Below are positions 7,447 through 62,112 of a stretch of 64,000 nucleotides of DNA, one piece after another; position 1 is the stretch's first letter, and each line of letters begins with the position of its first letter. The notes beneath the pieces were generated by a model, which worked only from the letters and a program-made list of their open reading frames with translations, had not been told where the DNA came from and did no database searches. The position numbers and the translations under genes are program-made. The DNA is from a virus. The stretch spans positions 32,001 through 96,000 of IMG/VR virus record IMGVR_UViG_3300033143_002031; one strand, given 5' to 3'.

Positions 7447-7653
7447 GTGGAGACGATGTTGCAGTCGAGGGATGAAGTTCGCGCCCTGTTCGGCGGGGCG
7501 CAGATGCAGACCAAGGACTCGCGGCGGAGCCAGGTCGCCGCTGCGAGCTACCTGTACCAGTTGGCGGAGCAAGTCCGTGATGGCTCGGTGCAGGACTTCG
7601 ATGTCCGGTGGAACGCCGCAGGGGACGTTGAGGCTAGCGTGACGCCCCGGTGA
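7447..7653 (+). CDS. hypothetical protein
   Basis: ORF, codon bias. Confidence 0.55.
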   Translation: METMLQSRDEVRALFGGAQMQTKDSRRSQVAAASYLYQLAEQVRDGSVQDFDVRWNAAGDVEASVTPR

Positions 7654-7679
7654 CAAACTCGGGCGTCCGGAGGAGACAC

Positions 7680-8996
7680 ATGGCGAAACAACCGAAGAAG
7701 AAGCCTGTCGATGACGCTGGTGACCCTCTGTACGACAGCCTGCCAGAGGTTCCGCACAAGACGTCACCGGCCCAGGCAGCCAAGAACGTCCCGGCCAAGG
7801 TGCCGGACCAGCGTCAGAGGTTCGAGGGGGCCTCGATCGAGGGAGACGACCCTCTGAAGGACACTGGTGGGGGCGTGAGCATCCCGGACTACCAGGATGC
7901 CTACCAGCCCCCGAGCGCGCCCAAGACCGTGGAGGACGACTTCCAGGGCGGCGAGACGCGCTCTGCGATCCGTATGGCGTTCATCGGTGCCGGGCAGGGC
8001 GGGGGACGCATCGCCCAGGCGTTCTACGACATGGGCTACCGGCGTGTGATGGTCTGCAACACGACCTCGCAGGACATGGAGTCGCTCACCATCCCGGCGA
8101 AGCTGGTCATCGGCAACGATCGGGGCGGCGCCGGCAAGGACCCCGAGGAGGGAAAACTCGCAGCCCAGGAGTCCTACGAAGACCTCATGGACGCCATGAT
8201 GCGAACCTTCGGCGAGGGCGTGGAGCACGTCTACATCTGCGTGGGTGGTGGGGGAGGCTCAGGCACGGGCTCGTGGCCGGTGCTGCTCGACGCAGCGCGG
8301 GAGTACGCCAAGAGCACGAACATCGAGAAGCCCTTTGGCAAGCACCTCGGCGTGATCATGAGCCTGCCCAAGAGGAGCGAGGGCGCCAGGGTCCAGCGCA
8401 ACTCGCACATTGCGATCACCGACGCGCTGTCGAAGCTCAACCGAGGGCTCATCTCCTCCCTGGTCATCGTGGACAACGCCAAGATCCACGAGCTTTACCC
8501 CGGTCTGCCAGTGAAGCAGTTCTGGACCGTGGCCAACCGCAACTTCGCGGCTGTGCTTCACACGTTCAACCTGCTTGCGGCCAAGGACTCGGAGTACAAC
8601 ACCTTCGACCGGGCCGACCTCCGAAGCGTCGTCCAGAACGGCCTCATGGTCTTCGGCATGACGCGAGTGGAGCGCTGGCAGGGCAAGGATGACATCTCGA
8701 AAGCTGTCCGTCAGAACCTCAAGGGTACGCTCCTCGCGGACGGCTTCGACCTGTCCAAGGCGGATATGGCCGGTGCCATCGTCCTGGCCCATGATGAGAT
8801 CCTGTCCGAGATACCCATGGAGAACATCGACTACGCCTTCAGCAGTCTTGGTCGTGCGTTGGGCAACGAGGGCATCACCCTCCACAACGGCATCTACGAG
8901 AGCAAGGGCCGCGTCTCCATGCGGGTCTTCACGATCATCTCTGGCCTCGAAGCCCCTCAAGAGCGGATCGACGAGCTAGAGCAAGCGGCCCGCTAA
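7680..8996 (+). CDS. tubulin/FtsZ-family GTPase (PhuZ/TubZ-like) with ~95-aa low-complexity N-terminal extension
   Basis: FIGAGQGGGRIA, NT, GAGKDPEEG, GGGGGSGTG signature, NTFDRADL; GGAGG SD before ATG 7680. Confidence 0.92.
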   Translation: MAKQPKKKPVDDAGDPLYDSLPEVPHKTSPAQAAKNVPAKVPDQRQRFEGASIEGDDPLKDTGGGVSIPDYQDAYQPPSAPKTVEDDFQGGETRSAIRMAFIGAGQGGGRIAQAFYDMGYRRVMVCNTTSQDMESLTIPAKLVIGNDRGGAGKDPEEGKLAAQESYEDLMDAMMRTFGEGVEHVYICVGGGGGSGTGSWPVLLDAAREYAKSTNIEKPFGKHLGVIMSLPKRSEGARVQRNSHIAITDALSKLNRGLISSLVIVDNAKIHELYPGLPVKQFWTVANRNFAAVLHTFNLLAAKDSEYNTFDRADLRSVVQNGLMVFGMTRVERWQGKDDISKAVRQNLKGTLLADGFDLSKADMAGAIVLAHDEILSEIPMENIDYAFSSLGRALGNEGITLHNGIYESKGRVSMRVFTIISGLEAPQERIDELEQAAR

Positions 8997-29278: not shown

Positions 29279-29687
29279 GGGCTGGAAATGGCTTCGACAG
29301 GTACACGGAAGATCGAGGGAGCGTGCCGGGGATGATCGTCGCCCGTAAAAACGCGGTCGAACAGCAATTGCCAACAGCGATAGCTACCCGGAGGTTCGCG
29401 CAGCAGCGTGACCTCTCGTCCTGCCGGGGCTCTGCTCACGGCTTCGGGTCAGGGCGTCATTCAGTGGGCTGGTCTGTGAAACGGCGTCTCCGAAGAACGC
29501 CGGGGGTCCTGCACTGGTCAGGCGTCAGCCCCCACGGACGAGATAGGACGCGCGATCTAGCCCCTCCCAGTCCGGGTCTAACCAGGGAGTGGTGAAGTGG
29601 TGGGCATACCCCACCAGGCTCGGCTTGTGCACGGAGAGCCCCCGAACTGAAGGTGCGTGGACTCGGGTTCGATTCCCGACCAGTCCA
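29279..29687 (+). ncRNA. ssrA: tmRNA; tag reading frame 29370-29411 ANSDSYPEVRAAA*
   Basis: 5' GGGCTGG..GGCTTCGAC, GCGTGCCG, pk1-like CCCGTAAAAACGCGG, 3' GGACTCGGGTTCGATTCCCGACCAGTCCA with G3.U70 Ala acceptor. Confidence 0.92.
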
Positions 29688-57488: not shown

Positions 57489-57563
57489 TGGTGACCTGGA
57501 CGGGACTCGAACCCGCGTTTCCCGGCTTGAAAGGCCGGAGTCCTTCCTGTAGACGACCAGGCC
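57489..57563 (-). tRNA. tRNA-Glu(TTC)
   Basis: Cloverleaf, loop CT-TTC-AA, CCA encoded. Confidence 0.9.
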
Positions 57564-57568
57564 GAGGG

Positions 57569-57640
57569 AGCCCCCGGGCGGAATCGAACCGCCTCCTCCG
57601 GAGTACGAAACCGGCACGCCACCTTTTGCGCCTCGGGGGC
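57569..57640 (-). tRNA. tRNA-Thr(CGT)
   Basis: Cloverleaf, loop TT-CGT-AC. Confidence 0.8.
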
Positions 57641-57641
57641 C

Positions 57642-57717
57642 TGGAGCCCACGTCGGGAGTCGAACCCAAAAACTCCTGCTTACAAGGCAGGCGCTCCGCC
57701 ACCGGAGCCACGCGGGC
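57642..57717 (-). tRNA. tRNA-Thr(TGT)
   Basis: Loop CT-TGT-AA, CCA. Confidence 0.88.
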
Positions 57718-57745
57718 AGGCTGCGACGATCGAGCATCTTCGTAG

Positions 57746-57816
57746 TGACTCTGAGGGGAATCGAACCCCCATTGCCGGATTGAGAGTCCGGTCTCCTACC
57801 GTTAGAGGACAGAGCC
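57746..57816 (-). tRNA. tRNA-Glu(CTC)
   Basis: Loop CT-CTC-AA. Confidence 0.88.
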
Positions 57817-57936
57817 GAGCGGCATCCCCCTTGTACCTAGCAAAGGGGGCGTGCCCACACCCCGAAAGGGGCTCGGTCCAACGACCGATGAGACGCAGCT
57901 AGGAGCGCCGTGCGCGCACGAGAGGCCGAAGCCCCA

Positions 57937-58011
57937 CGGTGCCGATCACGGGAGTCGAACCCGTCTCTCCAGGATGGCGACCTGGCGTCTTCCCACGTAG
58001 ACTTGATCGGC
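57937..58011 (-). tRNA. tRNA-Gly(GCC), atypical (C33, A73)
   Basis: Loop TC-GCC-AT. Confidence 0.7.
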
Positions 58012-58012
58012 A

Positions 58013-58100
58013 TGGCGGCGAGCGGAGGTCTTGATCCCCACGCCTTGTGAGCGCGCACCGATTAGCAGCCGGGCTCGGGCTCCTGCCCAATTCACTCGCC
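58013..58100 (-). tRNA. tRNA-Ser(GCT), atypical T-loop
   Basis: Loop CT-GCT-AA, long variable arm, T-loop ATCAAGA. Confidence 0.8.
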
Positions 58101-58106
58101 AAACTC

Positions 58107-58193
58107 TGGCGGCAGACGGAGGTCTTGATCCCCACTCCTCTCAGAGCGCACCGCTTTCGAGGCGGGCTCGGGCTCCTGCCCAATTCATCTGCC
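58107..58193 (-). tRNA. tRNA-Ser(CGA), atypical T-loop
   Basis: Loop CT-CGA-AA, T-loop ATCAAGA. Confidence 0.8.
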
Positions 58194-58280
58194 AGGTGCC
58201 CGCATGGCTGCACGGGCGACACCGCACCCCCACACGGGCGCGCTCCGGCCCCTCATACGGGATAATAGGGAGCGCAACAG

Positions 58281-58363
58281 CGGCAGACGGGTGACTCGAA
58301 CGCCACGCCTCTCAGCGCGCACCGCCTTCCAAGCGGGCCTGGTCCCTGACCAGTTCGTCTGCC
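58281..58363 (-). tRNA. tRNA-Ser(GGA)
   Basis: Loop TT-GGA-AG, long variable arm. Confidence 0.8.
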
Positions 58364-58365
58364 AG

Positions 58366-58451
58366 TGGCGGAGGGCGGAGGTCACGATCCCCACACCTCT
58401 CGGTGCCTGTCGCTTTCAAGACGATGGCGAGCCCTGCTCGCTTCGCCCTCC
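58366..58451 (-). tRNA. tRNA-Ser(TGA), atypical T-loop
   Basis: Loop CT-TGA-AA, T-loop ATCGTGA. Confidence 0.8.
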
Positions 58452-58620
58452 TCGCTTCAAGCTCCTCGATCCATCTCGCGAGGACGTGAACCCCAGCCAA
58501 GGCATGGTCTGGAGGGATACGTGTGTCGCGATTCCAGTTACGGCAGATGGATTCGAGAGCGATCTTGGCTCGTCTGATGTCGTCTATCTCAGGAGGCATC
58601 CTGAGACCGGCAGTATATCA

Positions 58621-58695
58621 CGGTCGGGCACCGGGGAGTCGAACCCCGCGCCTCCGGTCCCCCAGACCGGCGTCTCACCCCGAGACTAGTGCCCG
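58621..58695 (-). tRNA. tRNA-Pro(GGG)
   Basis: Loop CT-GGG-GG, C1-G72. Confidence 0.85.
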
Positions 58696-58731
58696 GTGTG
58701 CCCCCTCCGAAGAGGGGACGAGAAAACTCGA

Positions 58732-59295
58732 TCAGTCGGACTCCAGAGCCCCGTGCCAGTAGACCCACGAAGCCCACTGGTCTGGCAAGGAATCACTCGC
58801 GTCGATGTGGAGAGCGACGACCGGCAGCGAGCGCGGCTTCACGGGCGTCCTCTTCAGGCGCATCCCCGCTTGCTGCGGCGTCCGGTCCCGCTTCCGATCA
58901 TTGCATGGGTAGCAGGCGGTGACGATGTTCTCCCAGACCGTCTTGCCGCCCCTCGACCTCGGTGTTACATGGTCGTAGTTGAGCTTACGGGTGGACAGCC
59001 TCTTCCCGCAGTACTGGCAGGTCCAGTTGTCCCGCGTCAGCACGTTCATGCGCGAGAACCGAACCGCCTTCTTGCGCGCGACCGCCCGCAGGAGCCGGAT
59101 GACGGCCGGCATCTTCAGCACGAACGTCCAGCCGTACTCCTTCGCCCGATCTGCCTGATCGGGGGTCATGAGGGCCTCATCGTAGCTCTCTACGACTTCG
59201 GCCTTGTGTTGGAAGAGCAACGAGACGGCCCGTTGCCAGGACACGATGCGGTGGGGTTGGTACCCCAGGTCCAGGACCAAGCATTGGCTAGACAT
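58732..59295 (-). CDS. HNH endonuclease (McrA-like) inside the tRNA array
   Basis: RDNWTCQYCG..YDHVTPRSRGG..WENIVTACYPCNDRK; AGGAGG SD. Confidence 0.92.
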   Translation of the reverse strand: MSSQCLVLDLGYQPHRIVSWQRAVSLLFQHKAEVVESYDEALMTPDQADRAKEYGWTFVLKMPAVIRLLRAVARKKAVRFSRMNVLTRDNWTCQYCGKRLSTRKLNYDHVTPRSRGGKTVWENIVTACYPCNDRKRDRTPQQAGMRLKRTPVKPRSLPVVALHIDASDSLPDQWASWVYWHGALESD

Positions 59296-59330
59296 GACCG
59301 CCTCCTTTCTTGGTGCGAAAACTCTACCAG

Positions 59331-59413
59331 TGCGAGCGGGGGGAGTCGAACCCCCATGACCTCGCGGCCGGCGGGTTTTGAACCCGCTGCGTCTACCATT
59401 TCACCACGCTCGC
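59331..59413 (-). tRNA. tRNA-Leu(CAA)
   Basis: Loop TT-CAA-AA, long variable arm. Confidence 0.88.
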
Positions 59414-59419
59414 GCGGAG

Positions 59420-59503
59420 TGCCCGCTGCGGGACTCGAACCCGCACGCCCGCACGGGGCGCCCGGGTTTAGGCCGGGTGCGTCTACCGTTTCACCAAGCG
59501 GGC
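59420..59503 (-). tRNA. tRNA-Leu(TAA), C33
   Basis: Loop CC-TAA-AC. Confidence 0.8.
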
Positions 59504-59505
59504 AA

Positions 59506-59592
59506 CGGTGCTGCGGACAGGAGTCGAACCTGCACGACCTCTCGGCCACTGGCCCCTCAAGCCAGCGCGTCTACCAATTTCACCACCGCAGC
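59506..59592 (-). tRNA. tRNA-Leu(GAG)
   Basis: Loop TT-GAG-GG. Confidence 0.88.
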
Positions 59593-59630
59593 AGGCACAA
59601 AACACAACTTTCAAAGTTATGTTTTGACAT

Positions 59631-59716
59631 CGGTGCCAGGGAGAGGAGTCGAACCTCCACGACCTTTCGGCCACTCGGGTCTGAGCCGAGCGCGTCTACC
59701 ATTTCACCACCCTGGC
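59631..59716 (-). tRNA. tRNA-Leu(CAG)
   Basis: Loop CT-CAG-AC. Confidence 0.88.
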
Positions 59717-59717
59717 A

Positions 59718-59791
59718 TGGTGGGCGATGAGGGAGTTGAACCCCCGACTCTGGTGTGTGGGACCAGCATCTTTCCGTTCGACCAATCGCCC
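59718..59791 (-). tRNA. tRNA-Val(CAC), C33
   Basis: Loop CC-CAC-AC, CCA. Confidence 0.8.
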
Positions 59792-59800
59792 AGAAATCTC

Positions 59801-59877
59801 TGGTCGGGCAGAAGGGATTTGAACCCCCGACCTCCGCGTCCCGAACGCGGCGCGCTACCAGGCTGCGCTACTGCCCG
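59801..59877 (-). tRNA. tRNA-Pro(CGG)
   Basis: Canonical; loop TT-CGG-GA, CCA. Confidence 0.93.
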
Positions 59878-59960
59878 AATGAGGGGCCGACCGCACACTC
59901 GCTTTGCCCAGGCCGTGAAGCCTCCATCCTCCTACCGGGTCAGGCCAGCCCGACGCCCCT

Positions 59961-60032
59961 CGGTCGCACGGGAGAGACTTGAACTCTCGCGGTCACGGAT
60001 ATGAGCCGTGCCTCCCACCTTGGGACCGTGCG
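59961..60032 (-). tRNA. tRNA(CAT) Met or Ile2, shortened D-loop
   Basis: Loop CT-CAT-AT; D-arm CCCA-AGG-TGGG. Confidence 0.75.
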
Positions 60033-60033
60033 G

Positions 60034-60109
60034 AAGCGGGGGGAGGATTTGAACCTCCGATCTTTTGGTTATGAGCCAAATGGGGACGACCAGACTCCCC
60101 TACCCCGCA
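60034..60109 (-). tRNA. tRNA-fMet-like (CAT)
   Basis: GCGGGG/CCCCGC acceptor with 1:72 mismatch, loop CT-CAT-AA. Confidence 0.82.
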
Positions 60110-60185
60110 GGAGCCCTTGGCGAGACTCGAACTCGCAACTCCCACCTTCGGAGGGTGGTGCCCGTTCCAATCGGGCCGCAAGGGC
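60110..60185 (-). tRNA. tRNA-Arg(CCG)
   Basis: Loop CT-CCG-AA. Confidence 0.88.
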
Positions 60186-60201
60186 ATGGTAAACTCTGGG
60201 T

Positions 60202-60348
60202 ATGGCAAAACGTCAGTACGAGAAGCCGACCTTCAAGCACGTCAAGGGGTTCGCCTTCATCATGCGCTGCACCCCGTGCCCTGATTGCAGGAACGGTGTG
60301 ACCTGCCATCGCTGTAGTTGCTGCCACGGCTGCCACGGCTGCCACTAG
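60202..60348 (+). CDS. 48-aa Cys/His-rich peptide with YxxP leader-like motif
   Basis: MAKRQYEKPTFKHVKGFAFIMRCTPCPDCRNGVTCHRCSCCHGCHGCH; 38 of 47 codons end in G/C. Confidence 0.6.
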   Translation: MAKRQYEKPTFKHVKGFAFIMRCTPCPDCRNGVTCHRCSCCHGCHGCH

Positions 60349-60420
60349 CCTCCCCACGAGGACTCGAACCTCGATCTCAAGATCCGTAATCTTGCGTGAT
60401 GTCCATTTCACTATGGGGAG
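60349..60420 (-). tRNA. tRNA-Arg(ACG)
   Basis: Loop TT-ACG-GA. Confidence 0.88.
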
Positions 60421-60422
60421 AG

Positions 60423-60494
60423 ACCAGCCGGCGGGACTCGAACCCGCGATGCACGGGAGTAGAAGTCCCGCTCCCCTCCAGTGGGGTCGGCTGG
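60423..60494 (-). tRNA. tRNA-Arg(TCT)
   Basis: Loop CT-TCT-AC; short D-arm. Confidence 0.8.
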
Positions 60495-60495
60495 A

Positions 60496-60570
60496 CGGAG
60501 GCCCCGGGGGGAGTCGGACCCACCGATTCCTGGTTTGCAGCCAGGCGTCTTTCCGTTTGACTACGGGGCC
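60496..60570 (-). tRNA. tRNA-Cys(GCA)
   Basis: Loop CT-GCA-AA; T-loop TCCGACT. Confidence 0.85.
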
Positions 60571-60626
60571 AGTAGCTCGTCCGGCTTCACCGGCACAGAG
60601 CGGACGGCGGGACTCGAACCCGCCTC

Positions 60627-60700
60627 TGGTGCAGGTAGGGGGAGTCGAACCCCCGATTCGAGGGTGGAAACCTCGCGTCTTTCCGTTAGACCACACCTGC
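60627..60700 (-). tRNA. tRNA-Gly(TCC)
   Basis: Loop TT-TCC-AC, CCA. Confidence 0.88.
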
Positions 60701-60705
60701 GAAAC

Positions 60706-60778
60706 AGCGATCTGTGCGGGACTCGGACCCGCTTCTCCGGGCTCGGCCCGGTGTTCGTCCTATGAACTACATCGACCG
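60706..60778 (-). pseudogene. degenerate tRNA (5-nt anticodon loop, broken acceptor)
   Basis: D-arm GTTC/GAAC, CCGGG-CCGAG-CCCGG, T-arm GCGGG-TCCGAGT-CCCGC. Confidence 0.6.
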
Positions 60779-60845
60779 CTGCCTACTCGCGCCCGCTCTT
60801 CTCAGGGTACTGGTCGACGCTTCCCCTGAGCCTCCTGGGAGCTTT

Positions 60846-60921
60846 CGGAGCCCCGAGCGGGGATCGAACCCGCCATCTCCGCCATACCAAGGCGGCGAAT
60901 CACCACTGATTCTTTCGGGGC
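60846..60921 (-). tRNA. tRNA-Thr(GGT)
   Basis: Loop TT-GGT-AT. Confidence 0.88.
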
Positions 60922-60978
60922 AAGCGCCCCCTACCCGCTGCAAGGCTAGGAGGGAATCGAACCCTCGTAGGGGACTGT

Positions 60979-61049
60979 TGGACACGGAGGGAATCGAACC
61001 CTCATCTCCGGCTTGCAAGGCCGGCGTCTTCCCGTTTGACGACGCGCCC
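60979..61049 (-). tRNA. tRNA-Ala(TGC)
   Basis: G3.U70; loop CT-TGC-AA. Confidence 0.88.
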
Positions 61050-61124
61050 GTGTCCAGGTGAGGCAAGCTCGGGAATCAGGTTGCGCTACCCTCGTCCCAA
61101 CGCAAGGCGCGTCCTCACCCAGAG

Positions 61125-61197
61125 TGGATCGTGCGAGAGTTGAACTCGCGACCTCCTGCATGCGAAGCAGGTGCTCTCCCAACTGAGCTAACGACCC
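61125..61197 (-). tRNA. tRNA-Ala(CGC)
   Basis: G3.U70; loop TT-CGC-AT. Confidence 0.9.
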
Positions 61198-61203
61198 AAA
61201 CTG

Positions 61204-61340
61204 CCGGCGCTCTTACCACTTGAGCTACGAAGGCCGTTTTAGGGCCTCCGACAGGACTCGAACCTGCATCTCCGGACTCGCCGACGCTCTACCACTTGAG
61301 CTACGGACACCAATTGGCGACCGACGGGACTCGAACCCGC
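61204..61340 (-). pseudogene. cluster of tRNA remnants (5' half 61204-61235; anticodon-deleted tRNA 61243-61310; 3' half 61315-61340)
   Basis: TAGCTCAAGTGGTA D-arms and GGTTCGAGTCC T-arms without intact anticodon arms. Confidence 0.6.
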
Positions 61341-61352
61341 ACCTTCGGCTAG

Positions 61353-61425
61353 TGGAACACCGGGGAATCGAACCCCGAACCTCCTGGCTGCCAGCCAGAC
61401 GCTCTCCCAGTTGAGCTAGTGCCCC
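61353..61425 (-). tRNA. tRNA-Ala(GGC)
   Basis: G3.U70; loop CT-GGC-AG. Confidence 0.9.
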
Positions 61426-61426
61426 A

Positions 61427-61501
61427 TGGTGGGCGTGGAGGGATTTGAACCCCCGATCTTCTGCGCGTCGAGCAGACGTCTTGCCACTTGACCACACGCC
61501 C
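61427..61501 (-). tRNA. tRNA-Val(GAC), C33
   Basis: Loop TC-GAC-GC, CCA. Confidence 0.82.
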
Positions 61502-61510
61502 GAAAACTTC

Positions 61511-61585
61511 TGGTACCCCGAGTGGGAATCGAACCCACGACCTGAGCCTTATAAGGACCCGTCTCTGCCACTGAGTTACCGGGGC
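61511..61585 (-). tRNA. tRNA-Ile(TAT)
   Basis: Loop CT-TAT-AA, CCA. Confidence 0.82.
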
Positions 61586-61630
61586 TCCGACTGCTCGGAG
61601 CCATGTATTCGTTCCATCGGAACCTCCTTC

Positions 61631-61705
61631 TGGTGGGGCGAGAGGGACTCGAACCCCCGTCAACCGATTCATCAGACCGGCGCTCTGCCACTGAACTACC
61701 GCCCC
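61631..61705 (-). tRNA. tRNA-Ile(GAT)
   Basis: Loop CT-GAT-GA, CCA. Confidence 0.88.
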
Positions 61706-61706
61706 A

Positions 61707-61782
61707 TGGAGCCCTCGGCGGGAGTCGAACCCGCAACCTCCGGAGTAGGAATCCGACGCACGTCCAGCCGTGCTACGAGGGC
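61707..61782 (-). tRNA. tRNA-Arg(CCT)
   Basis: Loop TT-CCT-AC, CCA. Confidence 0.88.
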
Positions 61783-61783
61783 A

Positions 61784-61861
61784 TGGGGTGATCGACGGGA
61801 CTCGAACCCGCTAGGGCCGGGATCACAACCCGGTGCCGCGACCGCTTTGGCTTCGACCACC
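61784..61861 (-). tRNA. tRNA-His(GTG)
   Basis: G-1:C73, loop TT-GTG-AT, CCA. Confidence 0.88.
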
Positions 61862-62020
61862 ATACTTCTGGCGACTCTCCCAGGAATCGAACCCGGGCCT
61901 CCGAGACAAGGCTCCTCTCATGTACCCGCTTTGCCCGGCGGTGCGAGGATCGTTGCTTGGAATCGCAGGGGACAACCCACGACCCGCTCGGTGTTCTGCC
62001 ACTACCACTATCGAGCCGTA

Positions 62021-62105
62021 TGGCTCCCCAGGGAATCGAACCCCTTGCGCGCCACCACACATAATAGCGCGATCGGGTTACAGCCGATCGTGTGGAAAGG
62101 GAGCC
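62021..62105 (-). tRNA. D-armless tRNA-Tyr(GTA)-like RNA
   Basis: GGCTCCC/GGGAGCC-A acceptor, 9-nt D replacement, GATCGG-CTGTAAC-CCGATC, long variable arm, T-loop TTCGATT. Confidence 0.75.
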
Positions 62106-62112
62106 AAACTCA

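What the first reader, a model, noticed from the sequence alone, without database searches (positions are those of the whole stretch)
62021..62105. D-armless tRNA-Tyr whose D-replacement loop is complementary to its variable-arm loop
Seen (minus strand): GGCTCCC-TTTCCACAC-GATCGG-CTGTAAC-CCGATC-GCGC-TATTATGTGTGGTG-GCGC-GC-AAGGGG-TTCGATT-CCCTG-GGGAGCC-A. Tyr identity elements (G1-C72, A73, GUA, long variable arm) are intact and the D-arm is replaced by 9 nt. CCACAC there can pair with GTGTGG in the enlarged variable loop. It is the only Tyr tRNA in the array. D-armless tRNAs are known mainly from mitochondria. Inference: a novel pseudoknot-like tRNA architecture.
Basis: partly seen in the sequence, partly recalled or inferred. 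Interest (0 to 1): 0.8.

Follow-up and report, generated by a model that had tools for sequence, protein, structure and literature searches.

The report
Pseudoknotted phage tyrosine tRNA without D-arm
This 85-base gene in a large phage's tRNA cluster is very probably the phage's only tyrosine tRNA, yet it is not a cloverleaf: the D hairpin is replaced by a helix between the 5' connector and the loop of the variable arm, a design kept by compensatory base changes in at least 120 distinct phage and bacterial tRNA-array genes and missed by the tRNA finders I ran.

Summary
On the minus strand, window 62021-62105 holds an 85-nt tRNA-like gene with a GUA anticodon, A73, a G1-C pair and no D hairpin. 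ARAGORN and Rfam's tRNA model do not call it.

It is the only Tyr candidate in the 184.7-kb virus record. The other 43 tRNAs cover the other 19 amino acids.

The proposed CCACAC/GUGUGG pairing is real. An orthologue in a syntenic array (L027) changes A15:U47 to C:G. Across 120 distinct relatives from phage contigs and bacterial tRNA arrays (mostly Planctomycetota), this helix is 98.9% paired, and four of its six pairs covary.

The family also corrects two details:
- The acceptor stem has 8 bp and the T stem 4 bp (8/4).
- The variable stem pairs 36-39 with 56-59.

With the anticodon left free in the search, 144 of 151 hits carry GUA.

Charging with tyrosine and use in translation are inferred, not shown. 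Some carriers also keep a canonical tRNA-Tyr, so a decoy role is not excluded.

No paper I searched describes this design. This scan has already reported the same family on other genomes; my tests agree with those notes.

The parts
62098..62105 (-). Acceptor stem, 5' strand (nt 1-8, GGCUCCCU)
   Evidence: Pairs with nt 77-84. All 8 pairs covary in the family. The 8th pair is G:C 94, U:G 14, A:U 6, U:A 5, C:G 1.
62096..62097 (-). Two-nucleotide connector U9 U10
   Evidence: UU in 118 of 120 distinct relatives. U10 and, in most members, U9 were fixed by the second search pattern. In the first set of 40 sequences, where they were free, both are at least 90% conserved.
62090..62095 (-). P helix, 5' strand (nt 11-16, CCACAC), at the place where a D stem would begin
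   Evidence: Six Watson-Crick pairs with nt 46-51. Covariation at 4 of 6 pairs; 98.9% of cells paired.
62071..62089 (-). Anticodon arm: 6-bp stem (17-22/30-35), loop CUGUAAC, anticodon GUA at 62079-62081
   Evidence: Versus L027, two compensatory pairs and one compatible change. All six pairs covary in A2. GUA in 144 of 151 hits when the anticodon was unconstrained.
62067..62070 (-). Variable-arm stem H, 5' strand (nt 36-39, GCGC)
   Evidence: Pairs with nt 56-59 in the register the family supports. The middle pair in A1 is C:G 14, G:C 13, U:A 5, A:U 4, U:G 3.
62061..62066 (-). A/U-rich spacer in the variable loop (nt 40-45, UAUUAU)
   Evidence: In the family it is mostly 6-10 nt long, 48% A and 32% U.
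62055..62060 (-). P helix, 3' strand (nt 46-51, GUGUGG), inside the variable-arm loop
62051..62054 (-). U52 G53 G54 followed by C55, directly 3' of the P helix
   Evidence: UGG is invariant in the 40 distinct sequences of A1, where the search pattern did not fix it. Its role as a stand-in for G18 G19 is inference.
62047..62050 (-). Variable-arm stem H, 3' strand (nt 56-59, GCGC)
62030..62046 (-). A60 A61 linker and T arm: 4-bp stem (62-65/73-76), loop UUCGAUU
   Evidence: The G63:C75 -> C:G change in L027 fixes the register. The T stem covaries at 2 of 4 pairs.
62021..62029 (-). Acceptor stem, 3' strand (nt 77-84), and discriminator A85; no encoded CCA (next bases UAC)
   Evidence: The discriminator is A in 117 of 120 relatives, and CCA is encoded in 81 of 120.

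Best explanation
This is a real, selected gene for a non-cloverleaf tyrosine tRNA.

Fold:
- An 8-bp acceptor stem stacks on a 4-bp T stem, giving the usual 12-bp acceptor branch in 8/4 form.
- Two U's lead into a 6-nt strand that runs straight into a 6-bp anticodon stem.
- That strand does not close a D hairpin. It pairs with six nucleotides inside the enlarged loop of a short variable-arm hairpin, so the molecule forms a pseudoknot.

Inference on shape: the 6-bp long-range helix plus the 6-bp anticodon stem give 12 stacked layers. I count about 12 layers as well in the anticodon stem, pair 26:44, D stem and two tertiary layers of an ordinary tRNA. The invariant UGG that follows the helix is placed to play the part of G18 G19 at the elbow.

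Inference on function: the RNA is cut out of the array transcript, receives CCA from the host enzyme, is charged with tyrosine by the host TyrRS (A73, G1-C84, GUA, variable arm) and reads UAY codons. That makes it the Tyr member of the phage's otherwise complete 20-amino-acid tRNA set.

Why this body was selected is the least certain step. My best guess is that it lets the Tyr decoder escape host nucleases or other factors that recognise the normal tRNA-Tyr body.
For: Structure (shown):
- Every helix, including the pseudoknot helix, is kept by compensatory changes in the orthologue L027, in 40 distinct sequences and in 120.
- Shuffles never reach the observed values (0/500). Partners slid by 1-3 columns give 37-54% pairing, against 96-99% observed.
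- Nearest-neighbour pairs show 84 double compensatory, 24 compatible and 9 disruptive changes in the P helix. L041 and L070 differ at one site outside the helix yet carry C:G against U:A inside it.

Selection:
- The gene is the best-conserved piece (86% identity) between the window's array and the syntenic array in L027.

tRNA function (indirect):
- With the anticodon free in the search, 144 of 151 hits have GUA. The discriminator is A in 117 of 120, and CCA is encoded in 81 of 120.
- All members lie in tRNA arrays.
- In the window's record ARAGORN finds tRNAs for the other 19 amino acids, so Tyr is the only one missing.
- Two phage genomes rated 99-100% complete, with 28 and 30 tRNAs, also have no cloverleaf Tyr gene in the array stretches read and only this type as a whole-genome Tyr candidate.
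- No TyrRS or CCA-adding enzyme gene was found in the record, so host enzymes would have to serve.

Counter-defence idea (literature only):
- Retron-Eco7 PtuAB depletes tRNA-Tyr, and phage tRNA-Tyr rescues infection (PMC11555353).
Against: - No expression, processing, charging or decoding data exist for any member.
- At least 12 of 53 viral loci also hold a canonical tRNA-Tyr, sometimes next door. Two complete phage genomes hold both types.
- All five planctomycete genomes checked keep a canonical Tyr gene in the Thr-Tyr-Gly-Thr cluster. No organism is therefore shown to depend on this tRNA.
- In the window and L027 a nested 9-bp variable hairpin competes with the pseudoknot and is the MFE fold.
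- Seven members of the scaffold carry UCU instead of GUA.
- The helix layout can be drawn, but I could not model it in 3D. The short UGG(N) link between the long-range helix and the variable stem constrains how far the two G's can reach.
Confidence: 0.72

Rival explanations
1. It is a tRNA-Tyr look-alike that is made but not used in translation. It could be a decoy or sponge for a host factor that targets tRNA-Tyr (a nuclease, a modification enzyme or TyrRS itself), or a regulatory RNA of the array.
For: - It coexists with a canonical tRNA-Tyr in 12 of 53 viral loci, in two complete phage genomes and in all five planctomycete genomes checked.
- The core differs from every tRNA known to work on a bacterial ribosome. 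PMC11551756 states that all known bacterial tRNAs are cloverleaf.
- Mukai et al. found some irregular array tRNAs that were charged but not used in translation (PMC5389517).
Against: - A decoy for an anticodon nuclease would explain the kept GUA loop. It would not explain the kept 12-bp acceptor branch, A73, G1-C and encoded CCA.
- In the window's phage and in two near-complete phage genomes it is the only Tyr gene in a nearly full isotype set.
Confidence: 0.17
2. It is a working tRNA but is charged with another amino acid. The candidates are serine or leucine, the other long-variable-arm classes. UAY codons would then be recoded or made ambiguous during infection.
For: The D-loop and core elements that help TyrRS, LeuRS and SerRS tell class II tRNAs apart are rearranged. 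Allo-tRNAs of 8/4 shape with non-serine anticodons are serylated (PMC5389517).
Against: The discriminator is A in 117 of 120 members, not the G73 or U73 of SerRS substrates. GUA and G1-C match bacterial Tyr identity. There is no sign of unusual Tyr codon usage, though I did not test this.
Confidence: 0.06
3. There is no pseudoknot. The RNA folds as the nested MFE structure, with an unpaired 8-9-nt connector and a long 9-bp variable hairpin. The complementarity of nt 11-16 to nt 46-51 would be incidental.
For: The MFE and centroid fold of the window's sequence is -41.3 kcal/mol. The same hairpin is possible in L027.
Against: The extra five pairs of that hairpin exist only in the window/L027 lineage and are absent from the rest of the family. 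The 11-16/46-51 pairs covary strongly.
Confidence: 0.03
4. It is a decaying tRNA-Tyr pseudogene that has lost its D arm.
For: tRNA finders do not call it. It lacks an encoded CCA.
Against: It is 86% identical to its orthologue, and every stem difference is compensated. The same layout holds in 120 distinct sequences across phages and bacteria. Many of its neighbours in the array also lack an encoded CCA.
Confidence: 0.02

Closest known systems
Canonical bacterial and phage class II tRNA-Tyr(GUA) (Rfam RF00005 cloverleaf), such as the genes in the related phage contigs G004, G005 and G007 and in the same arrays as some family members
   Same: GUA anticodon in a 7-nt loop with U33 and A37, discriminator A73, G1-C72, a variable arm, a UUCGAUU-type T loop, and a place in tRNA arrays.
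   Different: No D hairpin. The 3' strand of the D-position helix lies behind the anticodon arm, in the variable loop. Acceptor and T stems are 8/4, not 7/5. The anticodon stem has 6 bp. ARAGORN and RF00005 do not detect it.
(8/4) tRNA-Ser, (8/4) tRNA-His and allo-tRNAs of bacteria and phage tRNA clusters (Mukai et al. 2017, PMC5389517)
   Same: A 12-bp acceptor branch split 8/4, a longer anticodon stem, a long variable arm, and occurrence in phage tRNA gene clusters.
   Different: Allo-tRNAs keep a D stem-loop with a long stem and a tetraloop, mostly have G73 or U73, and are SerRS substrates. This family has no D hairpin, has A73 and has a Tyr anticodon. The paper does not mention tRNA-Tyr or a pseudoknot.
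D-armless mitochondrial tRNAs, such as metazoan mt-tRNA-Ser(AGY) and nematode mt-tRNA-Ser (PMC4013460, PMC7609411)
   Same: The D hairpin is missing and a short connector joins the acceptor and anticodon stems.
   Different: The mitochondrial forms are small (about 55-65 nt), lack a long variable arm, and work with co-evolved organellar factors. They have no conserved helix between the connector and a variable-arm loop. This family is 83-91 nt, bacterial or phage, and rebuilds the helix as a pseudoknot.
Bacterial tRNA-Sec (from my knowledge of the family, and as described in PMC5389517)
   Same: An 8-bp acceptor stem, a 6-bp helix at the D position, a 6-bp anticodon stem and a long variable arm.
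   Different: tRNA-Sec has a closed D hairpin, a 5-bp T stem, a UCA anticodon and G73.

Membership tests
Canonical tRNA cloverleaf (Rfam RF00005) | Scores at or above the family's gathering threshold | tested here: not met
   No tRNA hit at 62021-62105 even at E <= 10. None of 7 other members is hit at gathering.
Canonical tRNA cloverleaf (Rfam RF00005) | D stem-loop closed locally between the acceptor and anticodon stems | tested here: not met
   Only 9 nt lie between the 7-bp acceptor and the anticodon stem. ARAGORN of 53 members.
Canonical tRNA cloverleaf (Rfam RF00005) | 7-bp acceptor stem and 5-bp T stem | tested here: not met
   The pair 8:77 is present in all 120 sequences and covaries. 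Position 61 does not pair with 77.
Bacterial tRNA-Tyr identity set | GUA anticodon, A73, G1-C72, long variable arm | tested here: met
   Seen in the sequence. GUA in 144 of 151 hits and A73 in 117 of 120. G1:C in 113 of 120.
Bacterial tRNA-Tyr identity set | Charged with tyrosine by TyrRS | not testable with these tools
   No aminoacylation data. No phage TyrRS gene.
(8/4) tRNAs and allo-tRNAs (Mukai et al. 2017) | 12-bp acceptor branch split 8/4 or 9/3 | tested here: met
   8-bp acceptor and 4-bp T stem, with covariation.
(8/4) tRNAs and allo-tRNAs (Mukai et al. 2017) | tRNA-Sec-like D stem-loop (long stem, tetraloop) | tested here: not met
   No local hairpin is possible in nt 9-16. Feature as described in PMC5389517.
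(8/4) tRNAs and allo-tRNAs (Mukai et al. 2017) | G73 or U73 discriminator (SerRS identity) | tested here: not met
   A in the window and in 117 of 120 relatives.
D-armless mitochondrial tRNAs | D arm replaced by a short unpaired connector in a small organellar tRNA without a long variable arm | tested here: not met
   The connector is paired with the variable loop. Length is 85 nt with a variable hairpin. The context is phage or bacterial.
Pseudoknotted tRNA-Tyr of phage and bacterial tRNA arrays (family defined here and in earlier notes of this scan) | 8/4 branch, UU, 6-nt strand running into a 6-bp anticodon stem, its partner inside the variable loop followed by UGG, GUA, A73 | tested here: met
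   All features are present in the window's gene and shared with 120 distinct sequences.

The most novel reading that the evidence does not exclude
A natural, pseudoknotted, non-cloverleaf elongator tRNA works in bacterial translation. It is charged by ordinary TyrRS and accepted by EF-Tu and the ribosome. It spread on phages and mobile tRNA arrays because its rebuilt body escapes host factors that attack or recognise the normal tRNA-Tyr.
Probability: 0.4. Interest if true: 0.9.

Novelty: new variant of a known kind. Interest (0 to 1): 0.8.

Why it matters
- **The cloverleaf rule.** Outside mitochondria the cloverleaf is treated as universal. A 2024 paper states that all known bacterial tRNAs adopt it (PMC11551756). 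A widespread, covariation-supported tRNA that rebuilds its D helix as a pseudoknot would be a natural counter-example.
- **What the translation machinery tolerates.** It would show how much freedom RNase P, the CCA enzyme, TyrRS, EF-Tu and the ribosome allow. It would also offer a new scaffold for orthogonal tRNAs.
- **Annotation.** Standard finders miss it, so phage and tRNA-array inventories undercount Tyr. Here a phage that looks like it lacks only Tyr in fact carries a full set.
- **Phage-host conflict.** If the altered body is a counter-defence, it links tRNA architecture to the arms race over tRNA-targeting immunity.

Tried and rejected
- **Exact and strict pattern scans.** An exact 19-nt anticodon-arm scan of viral contigs found nothing, and so did the strict acceptor-anchored pattern.
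- **BLAST against tubulin-related contigs.** BLAST of the Tyr-His gap against seven phage contigs related through the tubulin gene found only T-arm matches. Three of those contigs (G004, G005, G007) carry ordinary cloverleaf Tyr genes. The closest relatives are fragments that stop short of the array.
- **Flanking proteins.** Searches with two flanking proteins for related loci found no relatives.
- **Cultured phages.** INPHARED gave no blastn match for three family members, including the window's. I could therefore not see how an annotator treats such a gene.
- **ARAGORN in mitochondrial mode.** It calls an unrelated 65-nt object with a 2-nt anticodon at 62005-62069 instead.
- **Anabaena (Nostoc) PCC 7120 pCC7120delta tRNA operon.** This is the one long array with published in vivo charging data. 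It has a normal Tyr gene and no family member. My relaxed descriptor there gave only chance-like hits.
- **Sole cellular tRNA-Tyr?** The idea that some bacterium uses this as its only tRNA-Tyr failed for all five planctomycete genomes checked.
- **The 153-nt stretch between this gene and tRNA-His.** Its fold is no better than shuffles, so I make no claim about it.
- **Literature.** Searches for a D-armless or pseudoknotted bacterial or phage tRNA returned only mitochondrial, allo-tRNA and general tRNA papers. The library lacks most subscription journals, so prior description cannot be ruled out.

Full report
**What is there.** The window is bases 32001-96000 of a 184,744-base IMG/VR virus record rated 88% complete. 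It has about 63% G+C and a TubZ/PhuZ-like tubulin gene. ARAGORN finds 43 tRNA genes and a tmRNA. Most lie in a 5.7-kb minus-strand array at 57489-63197. The finding sits in a 253-nt gap between tRNA-Pro(UGG) and tRNA-His.

ARAGORN in default, relaxed and mitochondrial modes, and Rfam's tRNA model down to E = 10, do not report it. In the whole record the called tRNAs cover 19 amino acids, with only Tyr missing. The single GUA-loop plus T-arm candidate is this gene. The record has no TyrRS or CCA-adding enzyme gene.

**Relatives.** Phage contigs related through the tubulin gene (53-86% identity) either stop short of the array or, for the three more distant ones (G004, G005, G007), carry ordinary cloverleaf class II tRNA-Tyr genes.

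One scan of metagenome contigs fixed only the acceptor strands, CTGTAA and TTCGA. It found three contigs with an identical 84-nt homologue. That locus, L027, holds a syntenic array (Lys, Asn, Gln, Gln, Trp, Asp, Phe, tmRNA, Pro, this gene, His, Arg, Ile, Ile). The Tyr-like gene is the best-conserved segment between the two arrays, at 86% identity.

Of its 12 differences, none breaks a helix:
- 17:35 goes G:C to C:G.
- 19:33 goes U:A to C:G.
- 63:75 goes G:C to C:G.
- 18:34 and 16:46 change on one side and stay paired.

**A large family.** A viral-contig scan fixed only part of the anticodon arm and the T loop. It returned 56 loci, and 52 of them have the same layout. A second pattern left the anticodon and anticodon stem free.

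Together these give 151 well-formed hits and 120 distinct sequences:
- The anticodon is GUA in 144 and UCU in 7.
- The discriminator is A in 117 of 120.
- CCA is encoded in 81 of 120.

The prokaryote hits are mostly Planctomycetota MAGs plus the complete chromosome of Lacipirellula limnantheis I41. They lie inside or beside runs of tRNA genes, up to about 40 in one locus. ARAGORN calls none of 53 viral members. Rfam's tRNA model at gathering hits none of seven members tested.

**Structure from covariation.** On 40 distinct sequences from the first scan (alignment A1), the structure I wrote from the family is 99.3% paired, against 82% in shuffles. Seventeen of 27 pairs change on both sides. On 120 sequences (A2) it is 96.0% paired against 70%, with a covariation score of 0.70 against 0.19 for shuffles and at most 0.13 for slid partners.

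The long-range helix (nt 11-16 with 46-51 in the window) is 98.9% paired. Pairs 13, 14, 15 and 16 take four to six standard pair types each. Pairs 11 and 12 never vary and so say nothing. Among nearest-neighbour sequence pairs this helix shows 84 double compensatory changes, 24 compatible single changes and 9 disruptive ones.

- Nucleotide 8 pairs with the base before the 3' acceptor strand (G:C 94, U:G 14, A:U 6, U:A 5, C:G 1). The acceptor branch is therefore 8/4.
- The variable stem sits directly after the anticodon stem, which puts the window's register at 36-39/56-59.
- UGG immediately 3' of the long-range helix is invariant even where the search did not fix it.

The 5' part of the variable loop is A/U-rich.

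One caveat on invariant columns: the search patterns fix the T loop in both sets, the end of the anticodon stem and its loop (CUGUAAC) in the first set only, and, in the second set, UUCC, U33, A37 and GGUGG. Their invariance there is not evidence.

**How I read the fold.** The 5' strand of the long-range helix runs without a break into the anticodon stem. It therefore lies where the 3' strand of a normal D stem lies. Its partner in the variable loop, followed by UGG, lies where nucleotides 10-19 of a normal tRNA lie. The D arm is in effect permuted around the anticodon arm.

Six plus six stacked pairs would match in length the anticodon stem, the 26:44 layer, the D stem and the two tertiary layers above it. 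This mapping, and a G18 G19-like role for UGG, are my inference. The link from the helix to the variable stem is only 3-5 nt, which limits how far the G's can reach, and I could not model RNA in three dimensions.

In the window and L027 a nested 9-bp variable hairpin competes with the pseudoknot and is the thermodynamic optimum. Its extra pairs are not conserved elsewhere in the family.

**Function.** The features that are kept are those of a tRNA that is charged and delivered: the 12-bp acceptor branch, A73, G1-C, the GUA loop and the T loop.

The gene completes an otherwise 19-isotype set in the window's phage. In two phage genomes rated 99-100% complete, ARAGORN finds 28 and 30 tRNAs of 18 isotypes and no Tyr in the array stretches I read. 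A whole-genome pattern search finds only this type as a Tyr candidate.

Against a strict need for it:
- Twelve of 53 viral loci, and two complete phage genomes, also hold a cloverleaf Tyr gene.
- All five planctomycete genomes checked keep a housekeeping Tyr gene in a Thr-Tyr-Gly-Thr cluster.

A non-translational, decoy-like role therefore stays open. I put it at about one in six. The idea that the rebuilt body evades tRNA-Tyr-directed defence rests only on published work that such defences exist and that phage tRNA-Tyr counters them (PMC11555353).

**Comparison with what is known.** The closest described molecules are the (8/4) tRNA-Ser and tRNA-His and the allo-tRNAs that Mukai et al. found in bacteria and phage tRNA clusters. 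These share the 8/4 branch, the long anticodon stem and the variable arm, but keep a tRNA-Sec-like D hairpin. That paper mentions neither tRNA-Tyr nor a pseudoknot.

D-armless tRNAs are described from mitochondria. They are small and lack this helix. A review of non-canonical tRNAs does not mention phages. A 2024 paper states that all known bacterial tRNAs are cloverleaf. A survey of prokaryotic tRNA arrays lists Tyr among the rarest isotypes found by tRNAscan-SE, which fits under-detection. I found no description of this design, within a library that lacks most subscription journals.

**Earlier notes of this scan.** After my own tests I looked up earlier findings. At least eight notes on other genomes describe the same kind of gene. 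Six follow-up reports reached the same reading: pseudoknotted or rewired tRNA-Tyr, conserved in phage and bacterial arrays, missed by finders, no paper found. These are AI notes and I do not count them as independent evidence.

**Verdict.** The structure is as well supported as covariation can make it. Function as a tyrosine tRNA is likely but untested.

Noticed in passing
window 61866-62018 (-): The stretch of about 150 nt between this gene and tRNA-His ends in a good T arm, G73 and an encoded CCA, but no finder calls it. It is absent from the orthologous array L027, where His follows Tyr after 9 nt. Its MFE is no better than shuffles (z = 0.18). Rfam gives only a weak mascRNA-like hit at 61873-61926.
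   Followed up: partly
window 62350-62410 and 63263-63353: Two non-tRNA spacer segments are conserved between the window's array and L027. One lies beside tRNA-Trp (85% identity) and one lies upstream of the first tRNA of the array (81%). Other readers flagged both places as a possible structured RNA and a leader.
   Followed up: no
L088, L090, L102, L167, L168 (with L186 and L192 as copies): Seven members of the same D-hairpin-less pseudoknot scaffold carry a UCU anticodon (loop CUUCUAA) instead of GUA. They occur in phage contigs and in MAGs labelled Hydrogenophaga, Pyrinomonadaceae and Caulobacterales. Five end in A and two in G, and most have CCA encoded. The scaffold is therefore not strictly tied to Tyr.
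   Followed up: partly
L083 5992-6165; L067 10103-10367; L076 2719-2966; L082 2812-2988: In several phage arrays the pseudoknotted Tyr gene lies directly beside a cloverleaf tRNA-Tyr(GUA), which has an ordinary CUGUAAA loop.
   Followed up: partly
L194 1061-1464 and 1842-1916, and other planctomycete array loci: ARAGORN calls tRNA-Leu genes of only 74-77 nt in these arrays, too short for the long variable arm that bacterial tRNA-Leu normally has. The window's own Leu genes are 84-86 nt.
   Followed up: no
window 29279-29687 (+) and L027 3790-4139 (-): The phage encodes a tmRNA with the tag ANSDSYPEVRAAA. In the related array L027 the tmRNA (tag ANSDNYTEVRAAA) sits inside the tRNA array between Phe and Pro, while in the window it lies 28 kb away.
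   Followed up: no
window 7650-8996 (+): A 448-aa TubZ/PhuZ-like tubulin (Pfam Tubulin and TubZ-like_C). It served to find seven related phage contigs.
   Followed up: partly
window 60707-60777 (-): ARAGORN calls an extra tRNA-Ser(CGA) of 71 nt here only with its relaxed -ps setting. This is short for a Ser tRNA.
   Followed up: no
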